From an uncultured Flavobacterium sp. (GTDB lineage Bacteria; Bacteroidota; Bacteroidia; Flavobacteriales; Flavobacteriaceae): a stretch of 37,341 nucleotides of DNA. The stretch spans positions 1 through 37,341 of the forward strand of contig CAYZBA010000001.1 in NCBI GenBank assembly GCA_964476555.1. The letters run 5' to 3'. A program made the translations under genes and the position numbers. The notes under the pieces were generated by a model, which saw nothing but the letters and a program-made list of their open reading frames with translations, had not been told where the DNA came from and did no database searches. This document shows positions 6,078-14,086 of this stretch, piece after piece; the first letter of the stretch is position 1, and each line of letters begins with the position of its first letter.

Positions 6078-7933
6078 AATCTTTTATCCAACTCTTCGAG
6101 TTTCATGGTGATAAAAGTGGTTTTCCCGAAAGGTGAATAATCTGGCTCTTTACAAGCGAAAAGAGCATCCACTATATTGGTTTGTTCTTTTTCTGTAAGC
6201 AAAGTACCCTTTTTAACGGCCAGGCTTTTCGCCAATGATTTAGCTATGCTATCGTTTTGACAGAATCCACTCTCAGGGACACCTTCTTTTAAATCAGCGA
6301 TTAATTCTTCAAACACTTTTTGTGCTTGTTTTTCGTTGATATCAATTGGTAAACCAACCAATACCGTTTTATCTTTTTCGATGCTTTCAAACTCAAACCC
6401 AATCTGTTCTAAAACAGGCTGAAGCTCTTTCAGCAATGCGATTTCGTAACCCGAAAAATAATACGTAATCGGGAATAGTAACTTTTGAGTTAGTGTTTTA
6501 GATAAGGTAATATTTCTCAAAAACTCTTCATACAGAATTCGCTCATGAGCTCTTTGTTGATCAATTATCACGATTCCGGACTTAATTGGGCTCACAATAT
6601 ATTTCCGGTGGATTTGATAAGTCCTTACCGAATTTTCTTCTTCTTTTTCGTCAAAAAGCGAACCTAAAATTTGCTCGCTTTCCGGTTCTATCATAGGTTC
6701 ATAAACAGGTTCGTGAGTGATTTTTTCTTCCTTTAATCCCGTATACAAGCCTTCCCAACTTGCAGTACTCTTTTTATAAGAAGAGTTTGATGAGGTAGTA
6801 TATGATGACTTTGGTTTTGTTTCCTGCTGAAACGGATTAAAATCAGCACGAACTTGAATGGTTGGGAACTCCGTTTCTTTGTCTTTGTAATGATATGGTA
6901 TATCCAGTGTAGCATCCTTATCAAAATCCAAAACCGGAGCCACATTAAATTGTCCTAAACTATGTTTTACCGAAGAGCGCAAAATAGCATATAACGCTTG
7001 TTCTTCTTCAAATTTCACTTCGGTTTTAGTCGGATGAATATTGATATCTAGTGTATGAGGAGGTACTTGAAGGTAAATGAAATAACTAGGCTGAACACCT
7101 TCTTTCAAAAGTCCTTCATAAGCACTCATAACCGCATGATGCAAATAGCTGTTCTTTATGAATCTGTCATTTACGAAGAAAAATTGTTCGCCTCGGTTTT
7201 TCTTAGCAAACTCAGGTTTTCCGATAAACCCTTCAAGAGTAACAATTTCAGTTTGTTCGTTTATCGGAACCAGTTTTTCGTTGGTTTTTCCTCCGAAAAT
7301 ATTGACAATACGCTGTCTTAGGTTAGAGGCCGGAAGGTTAAATAATTCGTTTCCGTTCGAGAAAAGCGAAAAACTAATTTTCGGATGAGCCAGGGCCACT
7401 CGTTGAAATTCGTCAATAATATGTCGCATTTCGACCGTGTCTGACTTCAAGAAATTTCTTCGGGCCGGGATATTAAAAAAGAGGTTTTTTACTAAAAATG
7501 ACGTTCCTTTAGGCAACACTGCTACGTCTTGAGAAACGAATTTACTTCCCTCAATAACGATATGTGTTCCTAACTCGTCCTGTTCTTGTCTGGTTTTCAA
7601 CTCCACGTGGGCAACAGCTGCAATTGAGGCCAAGGCCTCTCCTCTAAACCCTTTTGTATGCAATGCGAAAAGATCTTCTGCTATTCGGATTTTGGAGGTT
7701 GCATGCCTTTCAAAACAAAGTCGAGCATCCGTAACACTCATTCCGGCTCCGTTATCAATCACTTGAATTAGTGATTTACCTCCGTCTTTGACGATGAGTT
7801 TGATATCGGTTGCTTTGGCATCCACGGAATTTTCCAGCAATTCCTTTACCACAGAGGCAGGTCTTTGCACGACTTCACCTGCTGCTATCTGATTGGCAAC
7901 ATGATCCGGAAGTAGCTGAATAATATTTGACAT
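6074..7933 (-). CDS. mutL: DNA mismatch repair protein MutL
   Basis: NQIAAGEVVQRP, KELLENS and GFRGEAL GHKL-ATPase motifs, DINIHPTKTEV, C-terminal DQQRAHERILYE. ATG 7933 (MSNIIQLLP). Confidence 0.97.
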   Translation of the reverse strand: MSNIIQLLPDHVANQIAAGEVVQRPASVVKELLENSVDAKATDIKLIVKDGGKSLIQVIDNGAGMSVTDARLCFERHATSKIRIAEDLFALHTKGFRGEALASIAAVAHVELKTRQEQDELGTHIVIEGSKFVSQDVAVLPKGTSFLVKNLFFNIPARRNFLKSDTVEMRHIIDEFQRVALAHPKISFSLFSNGNELFNLPASNLRQRIVNIFGGKTNEKLVPINEQTEIVTLEGFIGKPEFAKKNRGEQFFFVNDRFIKNSYLHHAVMSAYEGLLKEGVQPSYFIYLQVPPHTLDINIHPTKTEVKFEEEQALYAILRSSVKHSLGQFNVAPVLDFDKDATLDIPYHYKDKETEFPTIQVRADFNPFQQETKPKSSYTTSSNSSYKKSTASWEGLYTGLKEEKITHEPVYEPMIEPESEQILGSLFDEKEEENSVRTYQIHRKYIVSPIKSGIVIIDQQRAHERILYEEFLRNITLSKTLTQKLLFPITYYFSGYEIALLKELQPVLEQIGFEFESIEKDKTVLVGLPIDINEKQAQKVFEELIADLKEGVPESGFCQNDSIAKSLAKSLAVKKGTLLTEKEQTNIVDALFACKEPDYSPFGKTTFITMKLEELDKRF

Positions 7934-7960
7934 GAAAGGAATTTGATTTTTGAAAGAACG

Positions 7961-7968
7961 CAAATTTA
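7961..7968 (-). promoter_or_regulatory. -7 promoter box (TAAATTTG) for mutL
   Basis: Exact TAnnTTTG 27 nt upstream of ATG 7933; argues against the longer 7963 start. Confidence 0.6.
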
Positions 7969-8001
7969 ATCAATTCCGATTAGAATTTCGGCTTCACCAC
8001 T

Positions 8002-8028
8002 AAATAATTCCTTTACAAAAAAGGAATT
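8002..8028 (-). terminator. Probable terminator hairpin after the desaturase
   Basis: AATTCCTTT(8006-8014)/AAAGGAATT(8020-8028) inverted repeat just past the stop codon; weak U tail. Confidence 0.45.
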
Positions 8029-8038
8029 CTAAAACGTA

Positions 8039-9142
8039 TTACAACTCTCTTGCCTTAAAAATAGAGTGTGAACTACCTCCTCTTCCTGTATTTTTTAGGA
8101 GCACAAAATGCGAGCGAATCGCCTTTAGGACAGGATAGCATTTATACGGCAAATCGTATTCCTGCGCATATTTCCTAATAACAGGGGTAATTTTCGGGTA
8201 GTATAAATGTCCTACTGTCGGGAACAAATGGTGAGCCACATGATGTGTAAAGCCTCCGTACAAAAAATCTGCGACCGGATGTCCGGCACTAAAATCTTTA
8301 GTCACTAACATTTGGTGGTATGCCCAAGTCGTTCCCATTTGTCCGTCTTCCGGGACAACCGGGAAAATCGCATCTTCATCCACATGCGTTGAAATCAAAG
8401 CTACCACTCCGAACATACTCGAACTCAAATGCATCACTATCCAAGCCCAAAAGATGGTTCCGAAACTTTGATCTAAAACCAAATACGGAATCACCAACAT
8501 ATAAAATATATTAAATAACTTAGCTACAAATAGTTTTACGTATTCTTTTTTTGGAATGGTATAAATGCGTTTTAAGTAATTGTCTTTTGTTCCGAAAAAG
8601 TCTTTGAAATCGCGACTAAAGAGCCAGATAAGCGTATAAAACGGGTATAAAAACCACATATACACGTGTTGGTAACGATGGAATTTATACCATGGACTAT
8701 TCGGGAAAATACGAACCACATCACTTTGTTTGATGTCGCAATCCCAATCCTGAATGTTGGGATATGGGTGATGTAAGGCCGTATGTCTTCTGATCCAGAT
8801 TTCGCTGTTACTCCCGAAAAGTTCAAGGACATAACAAAACAAGCGATTTTGTTTTTCTGAAAAGAAAACGGCATTATGAGCGGCATCATGAAAAGAATTC
8901 ACAAAAATGACAATCATCGACAAGCCCATCAGTATATAAAACATGAAGAGCAGCGGTGTCGAATTCCCGAAATAGAGAATGCAGCCATAAAAAACAAAAT
9001 ACAAAGTCAACATTCCCAAAGCTTTAGCTATGCTTTTTCGCTGTATAGACTTGTCTTTGAGTATGTCTTCTTGTACTTCTTTTATTAGTTTTTTAAAAAA
9101 ATCATCTTTAGGTGGTCGGTTAAAAGTAGGCTTTTTGTTCAT
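8039..9142 (-). CDS. Membrane fatty acid desaturase (acyl-CoA desaturase family)
   Basis: Three His boxes HDAAH, HTALHH and HHVAHHLFP plus multiple TM segments. Confidence 0.9.
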   Translation of the reverse strand: MNKKPTFNRPPKDDFFKKLIKEVQEDILKDKSIQRKSIAKALGMLTLYFVFYGCILYFGNSTPLLFMFYILMGLSMIVIFVNSFHDAAHNAVFFSEKQNRLFCYVLELFGSNSEIWIRRHTALHHPYPNIQDWDCDIKQSDVVRIFPNSPWYKFHRYQHVYMWFLYPFYTLIWLFSRDFKDFFGTKDNYLKRIYTIPKKEYVKLFVAKLFNIFYMLVIPYLVLDQSFGTIFWAWIVMHLSSSMFGVVALISTHVDEDAIFPVVPEDGQMGTTWAYHQMLVTKDFSAGHPVADFLYGGFTHHVAHHLFPTVGHLYYPKITPVIRKYAQEYDLPYKCYPVLKAIRSHFVLLKNTGRGGSSHSIFKAREL

Positions 9143-9184
9143 TACAGTTGGTTTTTAATGAGAAAAAGTAACCGTTGATTTTGA

Positions 9185-9205
9185 CAAATTTAGAACTTCT
9201 AAATT
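9185..9205 (-). promoter_or_regulatory. Desaturase promoter -7 box (TAAATTTG, 9185-9192) overlapped by a 9-1-9 palindrome
   Basis: AATTTAGAA-C-TTCTAAATT at 9187-9205 is a perfect inverted repeat overlapping an exact TAnnTTTG. Confidence 0.55.
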
Positions 9206-9218
9206 AGAACGCCAAATC

Positions 9219-9263
9219 AAAAACATACCTGGTTAGCAGCAAAAATTTAGCCAAACAGGTATG
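9219..9263 (-). terminator. Probable terminator ending the metal-uptake operon
   Basis: CATACCTG(9224-9231)/CAGGTATG(9256-9263) arms followed by TTTTT on the minus strand, 15 nt past the lipoprotein stop. Confidence 0.55.
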
Positions 9264-9278
9264 CGAAAAATAATTCAT

Positions 9279-9728
9279 TTATTCATCTACATGATTATGA
9301 ACTTCTATTTCACTCCACACAACCTGCTGATTTCCGGAAGCATCGACCGCATATACTCCGAAGTGATAATGACCTTCTTCGGCGTCTGTCGGAATAAGAA
9401 TATCTATATGTATCGTATCTGAAGTTCCCGAAAGCGAACCTGTAGTTTCATAAGCCCATTGTTGATTCTCATCTTCCGACAAAGTTCTATGTTGATGACC
9501 ATCTCCGGCATAGTGAATGTCTATTTTATAAGATGCCAAAGCTACATTGTCTGTAAAGTTAGCTTGAACATGAATTTGCTCTCCTGCTTCAAACACTTGT
9601 TCGTCTTGAGGTGTTATCAATGTAATTGTTGGTTTTTGGGTATCTTTGTTGGAATCGTCATCAGAACAAGATACTGTAAATAAAGCTGTTACAACAGCCA
9701 AAACGGTAATAAACTTTATGTTTTTCAT
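9279..9728 (-). CDS. His-rich lipoprotein, DUF4625-like (Ig-like fold), putative metal-binding partner of the TonB-dependent receptor
   Basis: ATG 9728 gives MKNIKFITVLAVVTALFTVSC-SDDD (lipobox plus acidic export signal); D-x-x-KP-x-I, DNVALASYKIDIH..DGHQH and G-x-YHF motifs typical of DUF4625 proteins. Confidence 0.75.
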   Translation of the reverse strand: MKNIKFITVLAVVTALFTVSCSDDDSNKDTQKPTITLITPQDEQVFEAGEQIHVQANFTDNVALASYKIDIHYAGDGHQHRTLSEDENQQWAYETTGSLSGTSDTIHIDILIPTDAEEGHYHFGVYAVDASGNQQVVWSEIEVHNHVDE

Positions 9729-9779
9729 GATGTATATTTTTTTAATTAATAAAGGTTTGTGGTATTGTCTAAACAAGGA

Positions 9780-10142
9780 TTAGAAAACAACAGGCGGACC
9801 TTTGTTTTGGATGTTTTCAAGGAATATATTTTTATAAAACATCTTATATAAAGGAGTTTCTACTTCTTGGAAAATCACACATTTCTTAAGTTCTGAACAA
9901 CCAAAATCAAAAAGTTCCGTAAACGGAAGTTTATAAATACTCTGTTCACAATCATGGGTTTTGTGGTTTTTATGGAATTGTTTCGTATCGGAGTCAAAAA
10001 CTTCGAGATGATGTTCTATCACAAAATAGTGTAAAGCATTGTTGGCTTGTGGCAACCCAAACACCACAAACAACAACATCGCTCCTATTCTGTTGAATAA
10101 AAACTTTCTGTGCCCTTTTATTTTACATTTCTTATTTTTCAA
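9780..10142 (-). CDS. Small TM + His/Cys protein ending in KGPP; putative second DUF2946/CruR-like leader (arrest) peptide
   Basis: Hydrophobic segment, LHYFVIEHH, HKNHKTHDC, C-terminal NKGPPVVF. TTG start overlaps the TBDR TGA stop (TTGA); alternative ATG at 10079. Confidence 0.65.
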   Translation of the reverse strand: MKNKKCKIKGHRKFLFNRIGAMLLFVVFGLPQANNALHYFVIEHHLEVFDSDTKQFHKNHKTHDCEQSIYKLPFTELFDFGCSELKKCVIFQEVETPLYKMFYKNIFLENIQNKGPPVVF

Positions 10143-12466
10143 AACGTGTAACTAAACATGAGCTGTATGTTTCTTCCTTGCTCGGGAATTTCCAGAGCTC
10201 TATAAAAACTGGTGTGATTATAATATCGGGTATCAAAAATGTTTTGCACCATAAGTGTTGCTTCCAGCTGAGTTTTTCCCAGTGATAGTAATGACGAAAT
10301 TCCCGAATTAAATAGAGAAGCAGCCTTCGTAATTTCTTCGTTTTGAGCGATGCGTTTTTGTGCAGCAAAATATTTTCCGCTTAGGAAAACCTTAGTATCA
10401 TCTAAAATGGTATAATTTAGTTTAGTAAAAACATTCAAAGGCGGAGTAAACGGAAGCGGGTAGTTCTGCCCAATTTGTCTATTATAAATATACTCCAAAG
10501 CGATTTCGGTTGAAAAACGATTGACTTCCAACGTGTTTTCTACTTCAAAACCTGTCAGAAAGGCTTTGGTTTGCGAAAACTCATACAACTGGCCCGAATG
10601 TGGCAAAACCGAAAATTCTCCTGTAGGCTTTAGGAACAAATAATTCGAGAAATAATACAAATAAGAACTCACATTCCAACCTATCTTTCCTTTTTTATAT
10701 CGAATTTCAAAATCGACAGAGTAACCTTTTTCAGAATCCAATTCCGGGTTTCCTTTTTCGTGTCGGAAAGCGCCGTGGTGAATTCCGTTGGCTCCCAACT
10801 CAATCGCTGTTGGGTTTCGGAAACTGCTTCCGGTATTCAAAGCCAAATCTAAATACGGATTCCAACTGTATAAAATTCCAATTTTCATGTTGAAATTGCT
10901 AAAATTCCTTTTCAAATCCGGGCTTCGCAAAGCATAATGAGAAGCCAGATTTTCAGTATAATTTCTATCAATCAAATACTCATACAAAATTGGGTCGAAA
11001 TACTCTTTTATAGTAATGTCTGAAAAGTCAAATCGAACTCCTGCATTGCATCGAAGTTTATCTGAAAAACGAAAATGATGCAAACCGAAAACGCCATAAT
11101 TATTCCTTTTATATTCCGGGAGCAAGAAATTATAGCCTTTTATCGAATTCGCCTGATATTGAAGTTGAACACCAAAATCCGTATGATGTTTTTCATCGAA
11201 ATAATATCGAAGTTTCGCATTCGAGCTAATCGTATGAAGATTAAAATCAAGTTCTACATCCGGATTTTTTTCAGGTGGGGTTTGGTTAGAGAAATGCGTA
11301 TGAAATTCACTGATTTCTTGTCTGTGATTGGCCTGATAAGCCACATCAATACTAAAGTCTGACTTTGAAAATTTCCATTTATGAGAGTTATGAGCCGTAA
11401 AGTGATTGGTCTGCTGATACGGATATCCAATATTTCTTGAATTGCCATCGTCTTGTAGTCGATTCAGATCAGGAATTCCGTGCGAACCTGGGAAAAATCC
11501 GGTTTTATTTCGGTTATTAGTCAGCGTAACAATCGTTTGATAATTCTCTGACACGTATCCGATTTGCCCCAAAGCATTCCACTCAGTACCCGCAGTGTTC
11601 TTGAGTCTTCGATTGTAAGTCGGGATTTTTCGGGTTAAATAAATAATGGTGTCTGTCGGGATGTTAAAATCTCCGAAATCAGTAAAAAAGCCTTTAAGCT
11701 TATAGAACAACTTATTATCTCGTTTTCTAATATCGAGAGCTGTTCCTACACCATTGTTTACGGACTTTCCAAACAGAGTAACTTTTCCTGAAAAGCTATT
11801 TTCATTAGGAATCACATCATTTTTTACGTTCAAAACACCTCCTATAGCTTCGTTACCGTATTCGATGGATGCGGCTCCTTTAATAAGCTCAACCTGTTCG
11901 ACCGTAAAAGCATCTATCTCTAGCTGATGGTCTGCTCCCCATGGTTGCCCCTCGTGTTTGTTACCGTTTTGAGCCACCACGACCCTATTAAATCCAAATC
12001 CTCTGATAATGGGTTTAGAAGCTCCCGAACCAATCGTCATCGCATTAATTCCCGCCACATTCTCGAGAGACTGTATCAAAGAACCCGAATAGTTCTTCAA
12101 AATAACGTTACTGCCAATTGATTGTTTGTTTTCTACTTGTTTTACTACGCCGTGAATCTCTATGTTTTCAAGCAAGCTATTATCTTGTTGCAGAACAACA
12201 TTCAGCTGTTTATCTGCAGTCATATTTAATATTTCTTCGAATGGAATGAAGCCTAAATACGACACGAGTAGCCTATATTCAGAAGCTTTTAAGCCTGAAA
12301 CAGTATAATCGCCTTTGGCATCAGAAAAAGTATGGGTGTTTCCTAATCGTATGAGTGCTCCCGCTAATGGATTTCCACTTACATCTGTAATTTTCCCGGA
12401 AAGAGAATATTGGGGATGTGATAAAAATCCGATGAGCAAAAAAGCAATCGAAATGTATAATCGCAT
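10139..12466 (-). CDS. TonB-dependent outer membrane receptor, probable metal transporter
   Basis: Signal peptide, N-terminal carboxypeptidase-regulatory-like domain (SGKITD...VSYLGF), plug motifs (KPIIRGF; VELIKGAASIEYGNEAIGGVLN), terminal Phe, His motifs GSHG, FHTHF and GIHHG. Confidence 0.92.
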   Translation of the reverse strand: MRLYISIAFLLIGFLSHPQYSLSGKITDVSGNPLAGALIRLGNTHTFSDAKGDYTVSGLKASEYRLLVSYLGFIPFEEILNMTADKQLNVVLQQDNSLLENIEIHGVVKQVENKQSIGSNVILKNYSGSLIQSLENVAGINAMTIGSGASKPIIRGFGFNRVVVAQNGNKHEGQPWGADHQLEIDAFTVEQVELIKGAASIEYGNEAIGGVLNVKNDVIPNENSFSGKVTLFGKSVNNGVGTALDIRKRDNKLFYKLKGFFTDFGDFNIPTDTIIYLTRKIPTYNRRLKNTAGTEWNALGQIGYVSENYQTIVTLTNNRNKTGFFPGSHGIPDLNRLQDDGNSRNIGYPYQQTNHFTAHNSHKWKFSKSDFSIDVAYQANHRQEISEFHTHFSNQTPPEKNPDVELDFNLHTISSNAKLRYYFDEKHHTDFGVQLQYQANSIKGYNFLLPEYKRNNYGVFGLHHFRFSDKLRCNAGVRFDFSDITIKEYFDPILYEYLIDRNYTENLASHYALRSPDLKRNFSNFNMKIGILYSWNPYLDLALNTGSSFRNPTAIELGANGIHHGAFRHEKGNPELDSEKGYSVDFEIRYKKGKIGWNVSSYLYYFSNYLFLKPTGEFSVLPHSGQLYEFSQTKAFLTGFEVENTLEVNRFSTEIALEYIYNRQIGQNYPLPFTPPLNVFTKLNYTILDDTKVFLSGKYFAAQKRIAQNEEITKAASLFNSGISSLLSLGKTQLEATLMVQNIFDTRYYNHTSFYRALEIPEQGRNIQLMFSYTF

Positions 12467-12509
12467 TTTTGTTATCTTAAATGATTATTGAAAAAAACTC
12501 AGTGAATCA

Positions 12510-12830
12510 TTAAGATACAGGTGGTGCGCGAAGGGAAAAATACTCTACATAAGTTGTAGAGAATACAGTATTAGGGGTGACTGCTAACTTAGTATTTATA
12601 GGAAGTAGTTGAAAACTGTCAAAGGATAAAACAGCTACATCGGTAGCTGCACTAAAGGTAAAATCACAAATAGAACAATCTTCTTTTTCTGAAGTATGTT
12701 TATGTGTCGTACATTTGTGCTCTTGGTTGTCTTGCTGAAAATGCTCCACAACGTGAAGGGATTGAAATCCTATTACGAATAGGAAAATCCCAAGCAGAAA
12801 AACACTTATTTGTTGAGCTTTTGTTTTCAT
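12510..12830 (-). CDS. DUF2946/CruR-like upstream ORF with CxxC and C-terminal RAPP arrest motif
   Basis: ATG 12830: N-terminal hydrophobic helix, LHVVEH, HKCTTHKH, DCSIC, ending SLRAPPVS*, 43 nt before the TBDR ATG. Confidence 0.8.
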   Translation of the reverse strand: MKTKAQQISVFLLGIFLFVIGFQSLHVVEHFQQDNQEHKCTTHKHTSEKEDCSICDFTFSAATDVAVLSFDSFQLLPINTKLAVTPNTVFSTTYVEYFSLRAPPVS

Positions 12831-12844
12831 AGGCAAACTGAGTG

Positions 12845-12852
12845 CAAAGATA
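12845..12852 (-). promoter_or_regulatory. -7 promoter box (TATCTTTG) for the uORF-TBDR operon
   Basis: Exact TAnnTTTG 14 nt upstream of ATG 12830; no canonical -33 TTG seen. Confidence 0.6.
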
Positions 12853-12875: not shown

Positions 12876-12905
12876 TTGGAGTTTAAAATCAAATGATTAC
12901 TTTTG
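12876..12905 (+). promoter_or_regulatory. rpsF operon promoter, TTG-N19-TACTTTTG
   Basis: TTG at 12876-12878 and TAnnTTTG at 12898-12905 with the canonical flavobacterial 19-nt spacer. Confidence 0.75.
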
Positions 12906-12937
12906 CACCCTCAATTAAACACATAAATAATATTAGT

Positions 12938-13279
12938 ATGAAACATTATGAAGCTGTTTTCATTTTAAATCCCGTTCTATCTGAGGCTCAGATAGAGGAA
13001 ACAGTAAGCAAATTTGAGAATTTTCTTACTTCCAGAGGGGCAAAAATGATTGCAAAAGAAAACTGGGGCTTGAAAAAGCTAGCTTATGAAATCCAAAACA
13101 AAAAAAGTGGATTTTATCATTTGTTTGAATTCCAAGTATCAGGTGATGTAATCGCTGATTTCGAAACAGAATTCAAACGTGACGAAAGAGTAATGCGTTA
13201 CCTTACTGTAGCTCTTGACAAACATGCTGTTGCTTGGGCTGAAAGAAGAAGAGAAAAACTTAAATCTAAATCAAACTAA
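12938..13279 (+). CDS. rpsF: 30S ribosomal protein S6
   Basis: [12 protein letters not shown]...[10 protein letters not shown]...GFY; true start ATG 12938 lies downstream of the promoter. Confidence 0.97.
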
Positions 13280-13281
13280 TT

Positions 13282-13578
13282 ATGTCAAACGTAGAACAAT
13301 CAGCAGGAGGAAAAAAAGGTGGAGACATCAGATATTTAACTCCGCTTAACATAGACACAAACAAACAAAAAAAATACTGTCGTTTCAAAAAAGCAGGTAT
13401 CAAATACATCGACTATAAAGATCCTGACTATCTTTTGAAATTCGTAAACGAGCAAGGAAAAATCCTTCCAAGACGTTTAACAGGAACTTCTTTGAAATAC
13501 CAAAGAAAAGTATCTGTAGCTATTAAAAGAGCACGTCACTTGGCACTTATGCCATATGTGGCAGATTTATTGAAATAA
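13282..13578 (+). CDS. rpsR: 30S ribosomal protein S18
   Basis: IDYKD...[10 protein letters not shown]...QR..AIKRAR.LALMPY. Confidence 0.98.
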
Positions 13579-13589
13579 TTAATAAACTC

Positions 13590-13637
13590 AGTTGTTGGTT
13601 TCTGCCTTTTGCAGAACCTAACTTCTCAATACAAGGA
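13590..13637 (+). promoter_or_regulatory. Intercistronic hairpin plus SD-like AAGGA upstream of rplI
   Basis: GGTTTCTGC-CTTTT-GCAGAACC stem extended by AGTT/AACT, no U tract; AAGGA at 13633-13637, 8 nt before the ATG. Confidence 0.4.
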
Positions 13638-13645
13638 CAACAACA

Positions 13646-14086
13646 ATGGAAATCATTTTAAAACAAGACGTACCAAATTTAGGATTCAAAGACGATATCG
13701 TAACTGTAAAACCAGGTTATGCTCGTAACTATTTGATTCCTCAAGGAATGGCAATTTTCGCTAGTCCGTCTGCTAAAAAAGTATTAGCAGAAAATCTAAA
13801 ACAAAGAGCTTTCAAAGAGCAAAAACTAATTGACGAGGCTAAAAAAGTTGCTGAGGCTCTTAAAGGACTTGACATTAAAATTACTGCTAAAGCAGGTGGT
13901 GATAAACTTTTTGGTTCTGTTACAAACATTGATTTGGCTGAAGCTCTAGAAAAAGCCGGTCACTCAATCGACAGAAAATTCATCACTAGCGGAACTGTAA
14001 AAAGAACAGGTAAGTATACTGCTAGCATCCGTCTTCACAGAGATGTTATCGTAGAATTACCATACGAAATTATTGCAGAACAATAA
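13646..14086 (+). CDS. rplI: 50S ribosomal protein L9
   Basis: MEIILKQDV.NLG...VKPGYARNYLIP, KLFGSVT. Confidence 0.98.
   Translation: MEIILKQDVPNLGFKDDIVTVKPGYARNYLIPQGMAIFASPSAKKVLAENLKQRAFKEQKLIDEAKKVAEALKGLDIKITAKAGGDKLFGSVTNIDLAEALEKAGHSIDRKFITSGTVKRTGKYTASIRLHRDVIVELPYEIIAEQ

What the first reader, a model, noticed from the sequence alone, without database searches (positions are those of the whole stretch)
9279..12852. Two RAPP-type arrest-peptide leaders in series within one metal-uptake operon
Seen: the order is promoter > uORF1 (ends RAPPVS) > TonB-dependent receptor > uORF2 (ends KGPPVVF) > His-rich lipoprotein > terminator. The uORFs share little sequence but have the same layout: hydrophobic helix, LH..EH, His cluster, Asp-Cys, then exactly 48 residues to the [R/K][A/G]PP motif in both (counted by hand), a stop 2-3 codons later, and a 43-51 nt gap to the next gene. 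Established: Bordetella CruR (DUF2946; CxxC plus RAPP) is a copper-responsive uORF controlling a TonB-dependent transporter, and RAPP/RGPP motifs stall ribosomes in ApdA/ApdP. Inference: the fixed spacer positions the metal ligands outside the exit tunnel while the ribosome pauses, so each structural gene has its own co-translational metal checkpoint. I know of no described tandem cascade like this in Bacteroidota.
Basis: partly seen in the sequence, partly recalled or inferred. Interest (0 to 1): 0.88.

Follow-up and report, generated by a model that had tools for sequence, protein, structure and literature searches.

The report
Two stalling leaders in one operon
A predicted metal-uptake operon of a Flavobacterium-like bacterium carries two related small leader genes in series, an arrangement kept in dozens of relatives; the first likely switches on the receptor gene by stalling a ribosome that opens an mRNA hairpin, while the second lacks that hairpin, so it would have to act another way and may be weakened in this genome.

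Summary
The anatomy is confirmed: promoter > uORF1 (RAPP) > TonB-dependent receptor > uORF2 (KGPP) > DUF4625 lipoprotein. The tandem is not chance. It occurs in 28 of 51 loci with an R[AG]PP leader before this receptor, in three genera, and once as a triple. uORF2 is under purifying selection, keeps His/Cys ligands, and usually ends RGPP. uORF1 is a distant DUF2946 (CruR/CutF) relative; its CxxC lies 45 residues from RAPP, as in CruR, so the spacer is a known family trait.

The two leaders are not equivalent. uORF1 is followed by a conserved hairpin from its stop codon to the receptor's initiation region (35 of 40 loci). uORF2 lacks it (3 of 27) and starts at the receptor's stop codon. This window's uORF2 has Lys for the Arg that other RAPP peptides need, and a close relative (86% receptor identity) has lost the gene.

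Verdict: a new tandem variant of a known leader family. Stalling, the metal (zinc most likely) and uORF2's mechanism are untested. This scan found single leaders of this kind before, on other DNA.

The parts
12845..12852 (-). Bacteroidota -7 promoter element (TAnnTTTG), 14 nt before the uORF1 ATG
   Evidence: Sequence; consensus from PMC6847099; a match lies 87-97 nt before the conserved His codon in 47 of 50 loci scored
12510..12830 (-). uORF1: 106-aa DUF2946-like leader; hydrophobic helix, H26xxxH30, C52xxC55, R101-A-P-P
12666..12677 (-). CxxC codons of uORF1; 45 residues between C55 and R101
   Evidence: invariant in 45 of 45 rows of alignment A3; spacing
12519..12530 (-). RAPP codons, predicted stall site 1
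   Evidence: RAPP 30 and RGPP 22 of 52 first leaders
12473..12517 (-). Predicted hairpin: 5' arm 12517-12505 (last codons and stop of uORF1) pairs with 3' arm 12486-12473 (A-rich initiation region, -20 to -7 of the receptor ATG)
   Evidence: z = -3.09, 0 of 200 shuffles fold as well; same position in 35 of 40 loci; cognate arms pair better than swapped arms
10139..12466 (-). TonB-dependent receptor, 775 aa (N-terminal extension, plug, barrel)
   Evidence: Pfam PF13620/PF07715/PF00593; only PDB match at E<=1e-10 is ZnuD, 1.5e-15; haem-receptor and ZnuD models score alike, all below cut-off
9780..10142 (-). uORF2: 120-aa internal leader whose start overlaps the receptor's stop; hydrophobic helix, H38, H44, H63-D-C65, K114-G-P-P
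   Evidence: close homologues with the same N-terminal extension support the TTG start
9792..9803 (-). KGPP codons, predicted stall site 2 (RGPP in most homologues)
   Evidence: KGPP also in P0007, P0009, P0019, P0023, P0027, and RGPP in the equally close P0008, P0020, P0021, P0022
9279..9728 (-). His-rich DUF4625 lipoprotein, 149 aa, putative lid of the receptor
   Evidence: PF15418 E 5.8e-35; the family is proposed as a TBDT lid in 10.1101/2023.03.17.533168
9223..9264 (-). Terminator-like hairpin followed by a short T run
   Evidence: RNA fold; not tested for conservation

Best explanation
The operon holds two related His/Cys-rich leader genes of the CruR/CutF kind, and they likely form two unlike checkpoints on one mRNA: a ribosome predicted to stall at uORF1's RAPP would open a hairpin and let the receptor be translated, and uORF2, likely translated by coupling to the receptor's stop codon, would gate the lipoprotein without a hairpin. 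Step 1 (shown in sequence): one promoter motif lies just before uORF1 and none before the lipoprotein. Step 2 (inferred): the hydrophobic helix takes the nascent uORF1 chain to the Sec translocon. When metal is scarce the ribosome stays at RAPP and covers the stop-codon arm of the hairpin. This frees the A-rich initiation region that Bacteroidota use in place of a Shine-Dalgarno sequence, and the receptor is made. When metal (most likely Zn) binds H26/H30/C52/C55, about 45 residues from the active site, folding pulls the chain free, the hairpin closes and receptor synthesis falls. Step 3 (position shown, coupling inferred): ribosomes finishing the receptor restart on uORF2, so it is read only when checkpoint 1 is open. 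Step 4 (weakest, inferred): stalling at RGPP, tuned by a His3Cys site, keeps the RNA running into the lipoprotein gene, most likely by blocking Rho as CruR does. In this genome the KGPP variant probably makes checkpoint 2 leaky.
For: Tandem in 28 of 51 loci with an R[AG]PP leader before this receptor, including two other genera (L059-L061), plus L121 and metagenome locus L101; a triple in L088. The uORF2 profile hits 27 of 401 genus genomes at E<1e-15, always right behind the receptor (26 of the 27 built the profile). dN/dS of uORF2 is 0.22-0.40 in the 9 of 12 pairs that could be computed, and the motif uses varied synonymous codons. Invariant H38, H44, C65, P116, P117. uORF1 set: 20 of 45 hit DUF2946 at E<=0.05, best 6.9e-6. 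uORF1 and uORF2 profiles match at 96.7%, E 4e-10, and the uORF2 profile also finds first leaders. Hairpin: 4 or more linking pairs in 35 of 40 uORF1 junctions against 19 of 150 control junctions; own arm -7.5 against swapped arms -4.1 kcal/mol, own arm in the top 3 in 26 of 51, no such effect in 60 controls. uORF2 starts within -4 to +3 nt of the receptor stop in 24 of 30 loci. Promoter motif before uORF1 in 48 of 50 loci and before the lipoprotein in 0 of 27. Literature: CruR and CutF mechanisms; structure and upstream adenines tune initiation in Flavobacterium.
Against: No stalling, metal or expression data. uORF2 has no hairpin over the next start (3 of 27; window z = -0.12), and no arm pairs specifically with it (p 0.19-0.51). 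The Rho step rests on little: the spacer is G-poor (7% against 12%) but not C-rich (13.6% against 16.0%) and only 67-127 nt separate the motif from the next ATG. This window has KGPP, and Arg could not be replaced in three tested peptides, though a natural QAPP variant does arrest. uORF2 is absent in 23 of the 51 loci, including the nearest receptor relative L001; the receptor tree needs 7 gains or losses. uORF2 has no DUF2946 hit (0 of 26), and the window's own uORF1 has none. RNAalifold on MAFFT alignments of 15 + 15 uORF1 junctions gave no consensus pairs. A promoter-like match lies in the receptor's last 125 nt in 8 of 29 loci, not in this window. The loci are kin, so p-values overstate.
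Confidence: 0.55

Rival explanations
1. Only uORF1 is a working switch in this genome. uORF2 was a checkpoint in the ancestor but is optional and is being relaxed in this lineage, so this window holds one active leader and one weak one.
For: In the six-member receptor clade of the window, three have lost uORF2 (L001, L003, L013), two carry KGPP and one stops right after RGPP. Contigs that skip 9740-10136 occur in two DNA runs. Arg is essential elsewhere. No hairpin.
Against: The window's uORF2 still shows dN/dS 0.25-0.27 against L100 and L015 and keeps every invariant residue. KGPP recurs in at least five other proteins of 41-82% identity, always as NKGPP, which looks like a tolerated variant.
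Confidence: 0.25
2. uORF2 stalls but does not gate the next gene by metal. It tethers the mRNA at the Sec translocon or shields it from decay, so that lid and receptor are made in step.
For: Start at the receptor stop; N-terminal helix predicted; the lipoprotein's start region looks open without any stall (median opening cost 4.5 against 7.7 kcal/mol in controls).
Against: It does not explain the invariant His and Cys residues or their fixed distance to the motif.
Confidence: 0.12
3. uORF2 works as a finished membrane-anchored metal-binding protein that helps the receptor, and its C-terminal GPP is incidental.
For: His3Cys ligand set; sits between two uptake genes; tails after the motif vary from 0 to 17 residues.
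Against: The second half of the protein is variable except for the motif; RGPP is among the most avoided four-residue words in bacterial proteomes (PMC12992588 passage); predicted models show no folded domain beyond the helix, at low confidence.
Confidence: 0.08

Closest known systems
CruR (Bp2923, DUF2946/PF11162) of Bordetella pertussis (PMC9426467)
   Same: Exported small leader before a TonB-dependent transporter; CxxC and C-terminal RAPP 45 residues apart; for an importer, the same expected logic (metal relieves the arrest and shuts uptake).
   Different: CruR is single, first in its operon, followed by a 162-bp gap, and acts through Rho. Here uORF1 has a short gap with a hairpin over the next start, extra conserved His residues, and a second, internal leader. 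No copper context was seen.
CutF of Rhodobacter capsulatus (PMC9973294; 10.1101/2025.02.05.636593)
   Same: DUF2946 leader whose stall melts a stem-loop over the next gene's initiation site; the paper's survey lists many Bacteroidota CutF-like genes and TonB neighbours.
   Different: In CutF copper causes the stall and turns on detoxification, the motif is a proline run that depends on EF-P, and the hairpin hides a Shine-Dalgarno sequence. Here the hidden element is an A-rich region and there are two leaders.
RAPP/RGPP arrest peptides ApdA, ApdP and the RQH family (PMC12992588, PMC10987492)
   Same: Localisation signal, C-terminal RAPP/RGPP, short tail; stem-loop read-out as shown for uDF_RQH_Enterobacterales.
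   Different: These control Sec/YidC genes and have no metal ligands. The survey treats each uORF singly: its source table lists RAPP uORFs before DUF4625 genes, two of them of the internal type, but the main text has no hit for 'tandem', 'same operon', 'in series' or 'DUF4625'.
BT1420-BT1419 (TBDT plus DUF4625 lid) of Bacteroides thetaiotaomicron (10.1101/2023.03.17.533168)
   Same: Receptor next to a DUF4625 lipoprotein, cofit and predicted to bind.
   Different: No substrate named and no leader peptide described in the passages read; orthology to this receptor was not tested.

Membership tests
DUF2946 / CruR-CutF leaders | Match to PF11162 | tested here: inconclusive
   Neither window protein hits it; 20 of 45 uORF1 homologues do at E<=0.05, best 6.9e-6; 0 of 26 uORF2
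DUF2946 / CruR-CutF leaders | CxxC motif (uORF1) | tested here: met
   C52 and C55 invariant in 45 of 45
DUF2946 / CruR-CutF leaders | CxxC motif (uORF2) | tested here: not met
   One Cys (HxC) in the window and 24 of 29; full CxxC in 5 of 29
DUF2946 / CruR-CutF leaders | About 45 residues between CxxC and RAPP | tested here: met
   uORF1: 43-45 after the second Cys (first Cys 46-48) in 51 of 52; uORF2: 47-49 from the first or only Cys
DUF2946 / CruR-CutF leaders | N-terminal export signal or membrane helix | tested here: inconclusive
   Hydrophobic N-terminal helix in both by sequence and in low-confidence models; no signal-peptide predictor was run
DUF2946 / CruR-CutF leaders | First gene of a metal-homeostasis operon | tested here: met
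   True of uORF1 (promoter motif); uORF2 is internal, which is the departure
DUF2946 / CruR-CutF leaders | Metal-dependent, cis-acting control of the next gene | not testable with these tools
   Needs reporters
RAPP/RGPP arrest peptides | R-[AG]-P-P near the C-terminus (uORF1) | tested here: met
   R101-A-P-P, 2 residues from the end
RAPP/RGPP arrest peptides | R-[AG]-P-P near the C-terminus (this window's uORF2) | tested here: not met
   K114-G-P-P; 27 of 29 homologues have Arg; Arg essential in tested peptides
RAPP/RGPP arrest peptides | Stem-loop over the next gene's initiation site (uORF1) | tested here: met
   35 of 40, cognate-specific; computational only; RNAalifold found no aligned consensus
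RAPP/RGPP arrest peptides | Stem-loop over the next gene's initiation site (uORF2) | tested here: not met
   3 of 27; window z -0.12
RAPP/RGPP arrest peptides | Ribosome arrest at the motif | not testable with these tools
   Needs toeprinting or ribosome profiling

The most novel reading that the evidence does not exclude
A serial, ribosome-based AND gate. Two metal-sensing arrest peptides with different ligand sets (His2Cys2, then His3Cys) act on one mRNA by two different read-outs. The second is switched on by translational coupling to the gene that the first controls, so the surface lid is made only after the receptor and only below a second metal threshold. The unit can be chained three times (L088).
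Probability: 0.3. Interest if true: 0.8.

Novelty: new variant of a known kind. Interest (0 to 1): 0.57.

Why it matters
The metal-sensing leader peptides in the papers read act singly at the head of an operon. A conserved internal leader, coupled to the gene before it, would show that arrest peptides can be chained into a cascade that sets the order and ratio of a receptor and its lid. The uORF1 hairpin would show how stall-and-melt control works in Bacteroidota, which do not use Shine-Dalgarno pairing. It may also extend the DUF2946 family from copper to zinc uptake. The natural series (RGPP, KGPP, gene lost) in close relatives gives ready-made controls, and tests whether Arg is really required on a Bacteroidota ribosome.

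Tried and rejected
RNAalifold on MAFFT alignments of uORF1 junctions: 0 pairs in both sets; the spacers differ too much in length and sequence, so an arm-swap test was used instead.

A second switch for uORF2 using the codons before RGPP: some pairing with the next start region in 9 of 27 loci against 34 of 150 controls, but not cognate-specific (p 0.51); not accepted.

Rho site: C>G skew of the uORF2 spacer is 0.33 against 0.14, but it comes from few G, not many C; fourfold sites in the last 40 codons show no C excess. An intrinsic terminator-like hairpin inside uORF1 (12561-12543) did not stand out in homologues (pairing before the motif is low); treated as chance.

AlphaFold models of both leaders: pLDDT 64-67, pTM about 0.35, only an N-terminal helix; no metal site can be read, and no fold search was run.

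RNA contigs from four metatranscriptome runs cover the operon in patches; uORF1 contigs are deeper than receptor contigs in three runs and uORF2 is thinly covered. Contig depth cannot rank genes and DNA may be present, so this is not used as evidence.

A recent local duplication of uORF1 as the origin of uORF2: not supported; in a low-resolution tree no uORF2 pairs with its own uORF1 on a resolved branch, and one origin is not ruled out.

Tandems outside Flavobacteriaceae: none seen in the 16 of 19 phylum-wide loci (some of them Flavobacteriaceae) where the script found a leader, several cut short by contig ends; the 9 weaker order-level and genus hits were first leaders. The search with the receptor in genome contigs gave one locus. 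The mixture-model tree did not finish; FastTree was used.

Rows left out: L012 (duplicate of L001) and L044 (contig edge) from the 51-locus count; loci whose leader ends in SRPPP-like words (24 of L059-L087) or whose lipoproteins come first are outside that count, and none had a second leader. The hairpin test kept uORF1 junctions of 115 nt or less (40 of 52); the arm-swap test used 51.
Full report
Observation. The receptor has plug and barrel domains and the last gene is a DUF4625 lipoprotein. A Bacteroidota -7 element lies at 12852-12845 (consensus in PMC6847099). Only 3 of 3130 small ORFs in this genome end in [RK][AG]PP, and two are these.

Conservation of the tandem. The receptor was found at E<=1e-100 in 73 of 401 genomes of the genus and at E<=1e-120 in 50 of 401 of the family, the own genome included. 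I read 58 loci and 29. Among 51 loci with an R[AG]PP leader before the receptor, 28 have a second leader between receptor and lipoprotein. Three of these are in two other genera (L059-L061). L121 and metagenome locus L101 add two more. L088 has three leaders: leader, receptor in two ORFs, leader, receptor, leader, lipoproteins. The uORF2 profile finds 27 strong hits in the 401 genus genomes, all directly behind the receptor; 26 of them built the profile, and weaker hits include first leaders. On a receptor tree the tandem label needs 7 changes; the simplest reading is an old tandem lost several times, for example in L001 (86% receptor identity), which keeps only the spacer before the lipoprotein. 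No tandem was seen outside Flavobacteriaceae in the samples read.

Both are real coding genes of one family. dN/dS is 0.22-0.40 for uORF2 (9 of 12 pairs computable) and 0.10-0.45 for uORF1 (12 pairs), and the motifs use varied synonymous codons. uORF1 keeps H26, H30, C52, C55, R101, P103, P104; uORF2 keeps H38, H44, C65, P116, P117, and nearly always H63. The two profiles match (96.7%, E 4e-10; both sets were chosen by motif, which helps the match). Twenty of 45 uORF1 homologues hit DUF2946 weakly; no uORF2 does. The distance from the second Cys to Arg in uORF1 is 44-45, the value published for CruR (PMC9426467).

The leaders differ in RNA anatomy. After uORF1's Pro-Pro codons a hairpin starts over the stop codon and pairs with the A-rich region before the receptor ATG. 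In the window its z-score is -3.09. Four or more linking pairs occur in 35 of 40 loci against 19 of 150 control junctions from this genome. Each arm pairs better with its own start region than with those of other loci (-7.5 against -4.1 kcal/mol; no effect in controls), which points to co-evolution and not composition. Masking a ribosome footprint lowers the cost of opening the start region by a median 2.3 kcal/mol, against 0.06 in controls. RNAalifold found no aligned consensus. Since mRNA structure and upstream adenines tune initiation in Flavobacterium, this is the SecM/CutF layout without a Shine-Dalgarno sequence. uORF2 shows none of it (3 of 27; z -0.12). Its start lies within -4 to +3 nt of the receptor stop in 24 of 30 loci (starts called as the first ATG/GTG/TTG), and no promoter motif precedes the lipoprotein (0 of 27).

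The KGPP caveat. In ApcA, ApdA and ApdP all 19 Arg substitutions raised read-through (PMC12992588 section 7), although a natural QAPP peptide arrests (PMC10987492 passage). Of 29 uORF2s, 27 have Arg. The window's lineage alternates between NKGPP and DRGPP, and half of its six members have lost the gene. The family is a good arrest candidate; this copy is a doubtful one.

Mechanism. See Best explanation. The anatomy, selection and hairpin are computed results. Stalling, metal binding, direction and coupling are inferred from CruR, CutF and the Apd peptides. For uORF2 I commit to CruR-like protection from Rho, by exclusion more than by evidence: the spacer is G-poor and open but not C-rich; a Rho-like ORF is present in the genome by a recalled motif. 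For the metal I favour zinc (about 0.5; Ni/Co, Fe/haem and Cu share the rest). ZnuD is the only PDB match, ZnuD and haem-receptor models score alike below cut-off, a CobW-family gene follows one related operon and a Fur-family gene faces another, and the published survey found the copper-gene class of these uORFs lacking in Bacteroidota.

What is in print. Seen: PMC9426467 passages; PMC9973294 passages and sections 10-12, with only 3 small supplements searchable, so its neighbour table was not seen; 10.1101/2025.02.05.636593 abstract; PMC12992588 passages, section 7 and supplement searches, with one file cut and one not searched; PMC10987492 passages; PMC6847099 abstract and passages; 10.1101/2023.03.17.533168 passages. 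Single leaders before TonB receptors in Bacteroidota are already catalogued. The EMBO J source table has 20 rows of RAPP uORFs before DUF4625 genes, two of them internal-type by sequence (rows 304 and 6201), without comment in the main text. Eight paper searches listed no paper that describes leaders in series; subscription journals are mostly outside this library. Earlier scan notes describe single leaders, one with a similar hairpin; a sequence look-up with uORF2 and a word look-up for the tandem found nothing.

Verdict. A real, conserved feature and a new variant of a known kind: a CruR/CutF-like leader with a hairpin switch, followed by an internal, receptor-coupled paralogue of unresolved action. 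Interest 0.57; 0.8 if the two-step gate is shown.

Noticed in passing
L088:6810-13946: Three leaders in series: leader, TonB receptor split into two ORFs (plug half 7249-8124, barrel half 8034-9449), leader, intact receptor, leader, two DUF4625 lipoproteins.
   Followed up: partly
L062-L087 (24 loci): In many other Flavobacteriaceae the single leader before the related receptor ends in SRPPP, CRPPP or NKPPP instead of R[AG]PP, with longer gaps (150-305 nt); likely a polyproline-type variant closer to CutF.
   Followed up: no
L089, L090, L091, L095: Operons with DUF4625 lipoproteins before the receptor have one RAPP leader 340-440 nt ahead of the first lipoprotein; the long gap suggests a CruR-like read-out.
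   Followed up: partly
L095:12921-13874; L009:82-492: A CobW-family GTPase follows one related operon and a Fur-family regulator gene converges on another, in line with zinc or other metal uptake.
   Followed up: partly
alignment A3: uORF1 homologues weakly match NCBIfam LIC10965 (8 of 45), CzcI (6 of 45) and LpqS (1 of 45), hinting that these families are leaders of the same kind.
   Followed up: no
L100:1800-1908: A 109-nt gap with an inverted-repeat element separates the receptor stop from uORF2, breaking the usual coupling.
   Followed up: no
window 12831-12852; first leaders generally: The start codon of uORF1 lies only about 6-14 nt after the -7 element in the loci printed, so these mRNAs would be nearly leaderless.
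   Followed up: no
L109, L113, L117: In distant members of the phylum a CxxC/R[AG]PP-type leader (KAPP in L109) directly precedes a lipoprotein gene, in two cases with the receptor after it.
   Followed up: no
window 8039-9142 and 12893-14086: The operon sits between a fatty acid desaturase gene with its own promoter-like motif and the divergent rpsF-rpsR-rplI operon (names recalled from the translations); L001 has the same neighbours.
   Followed up: no
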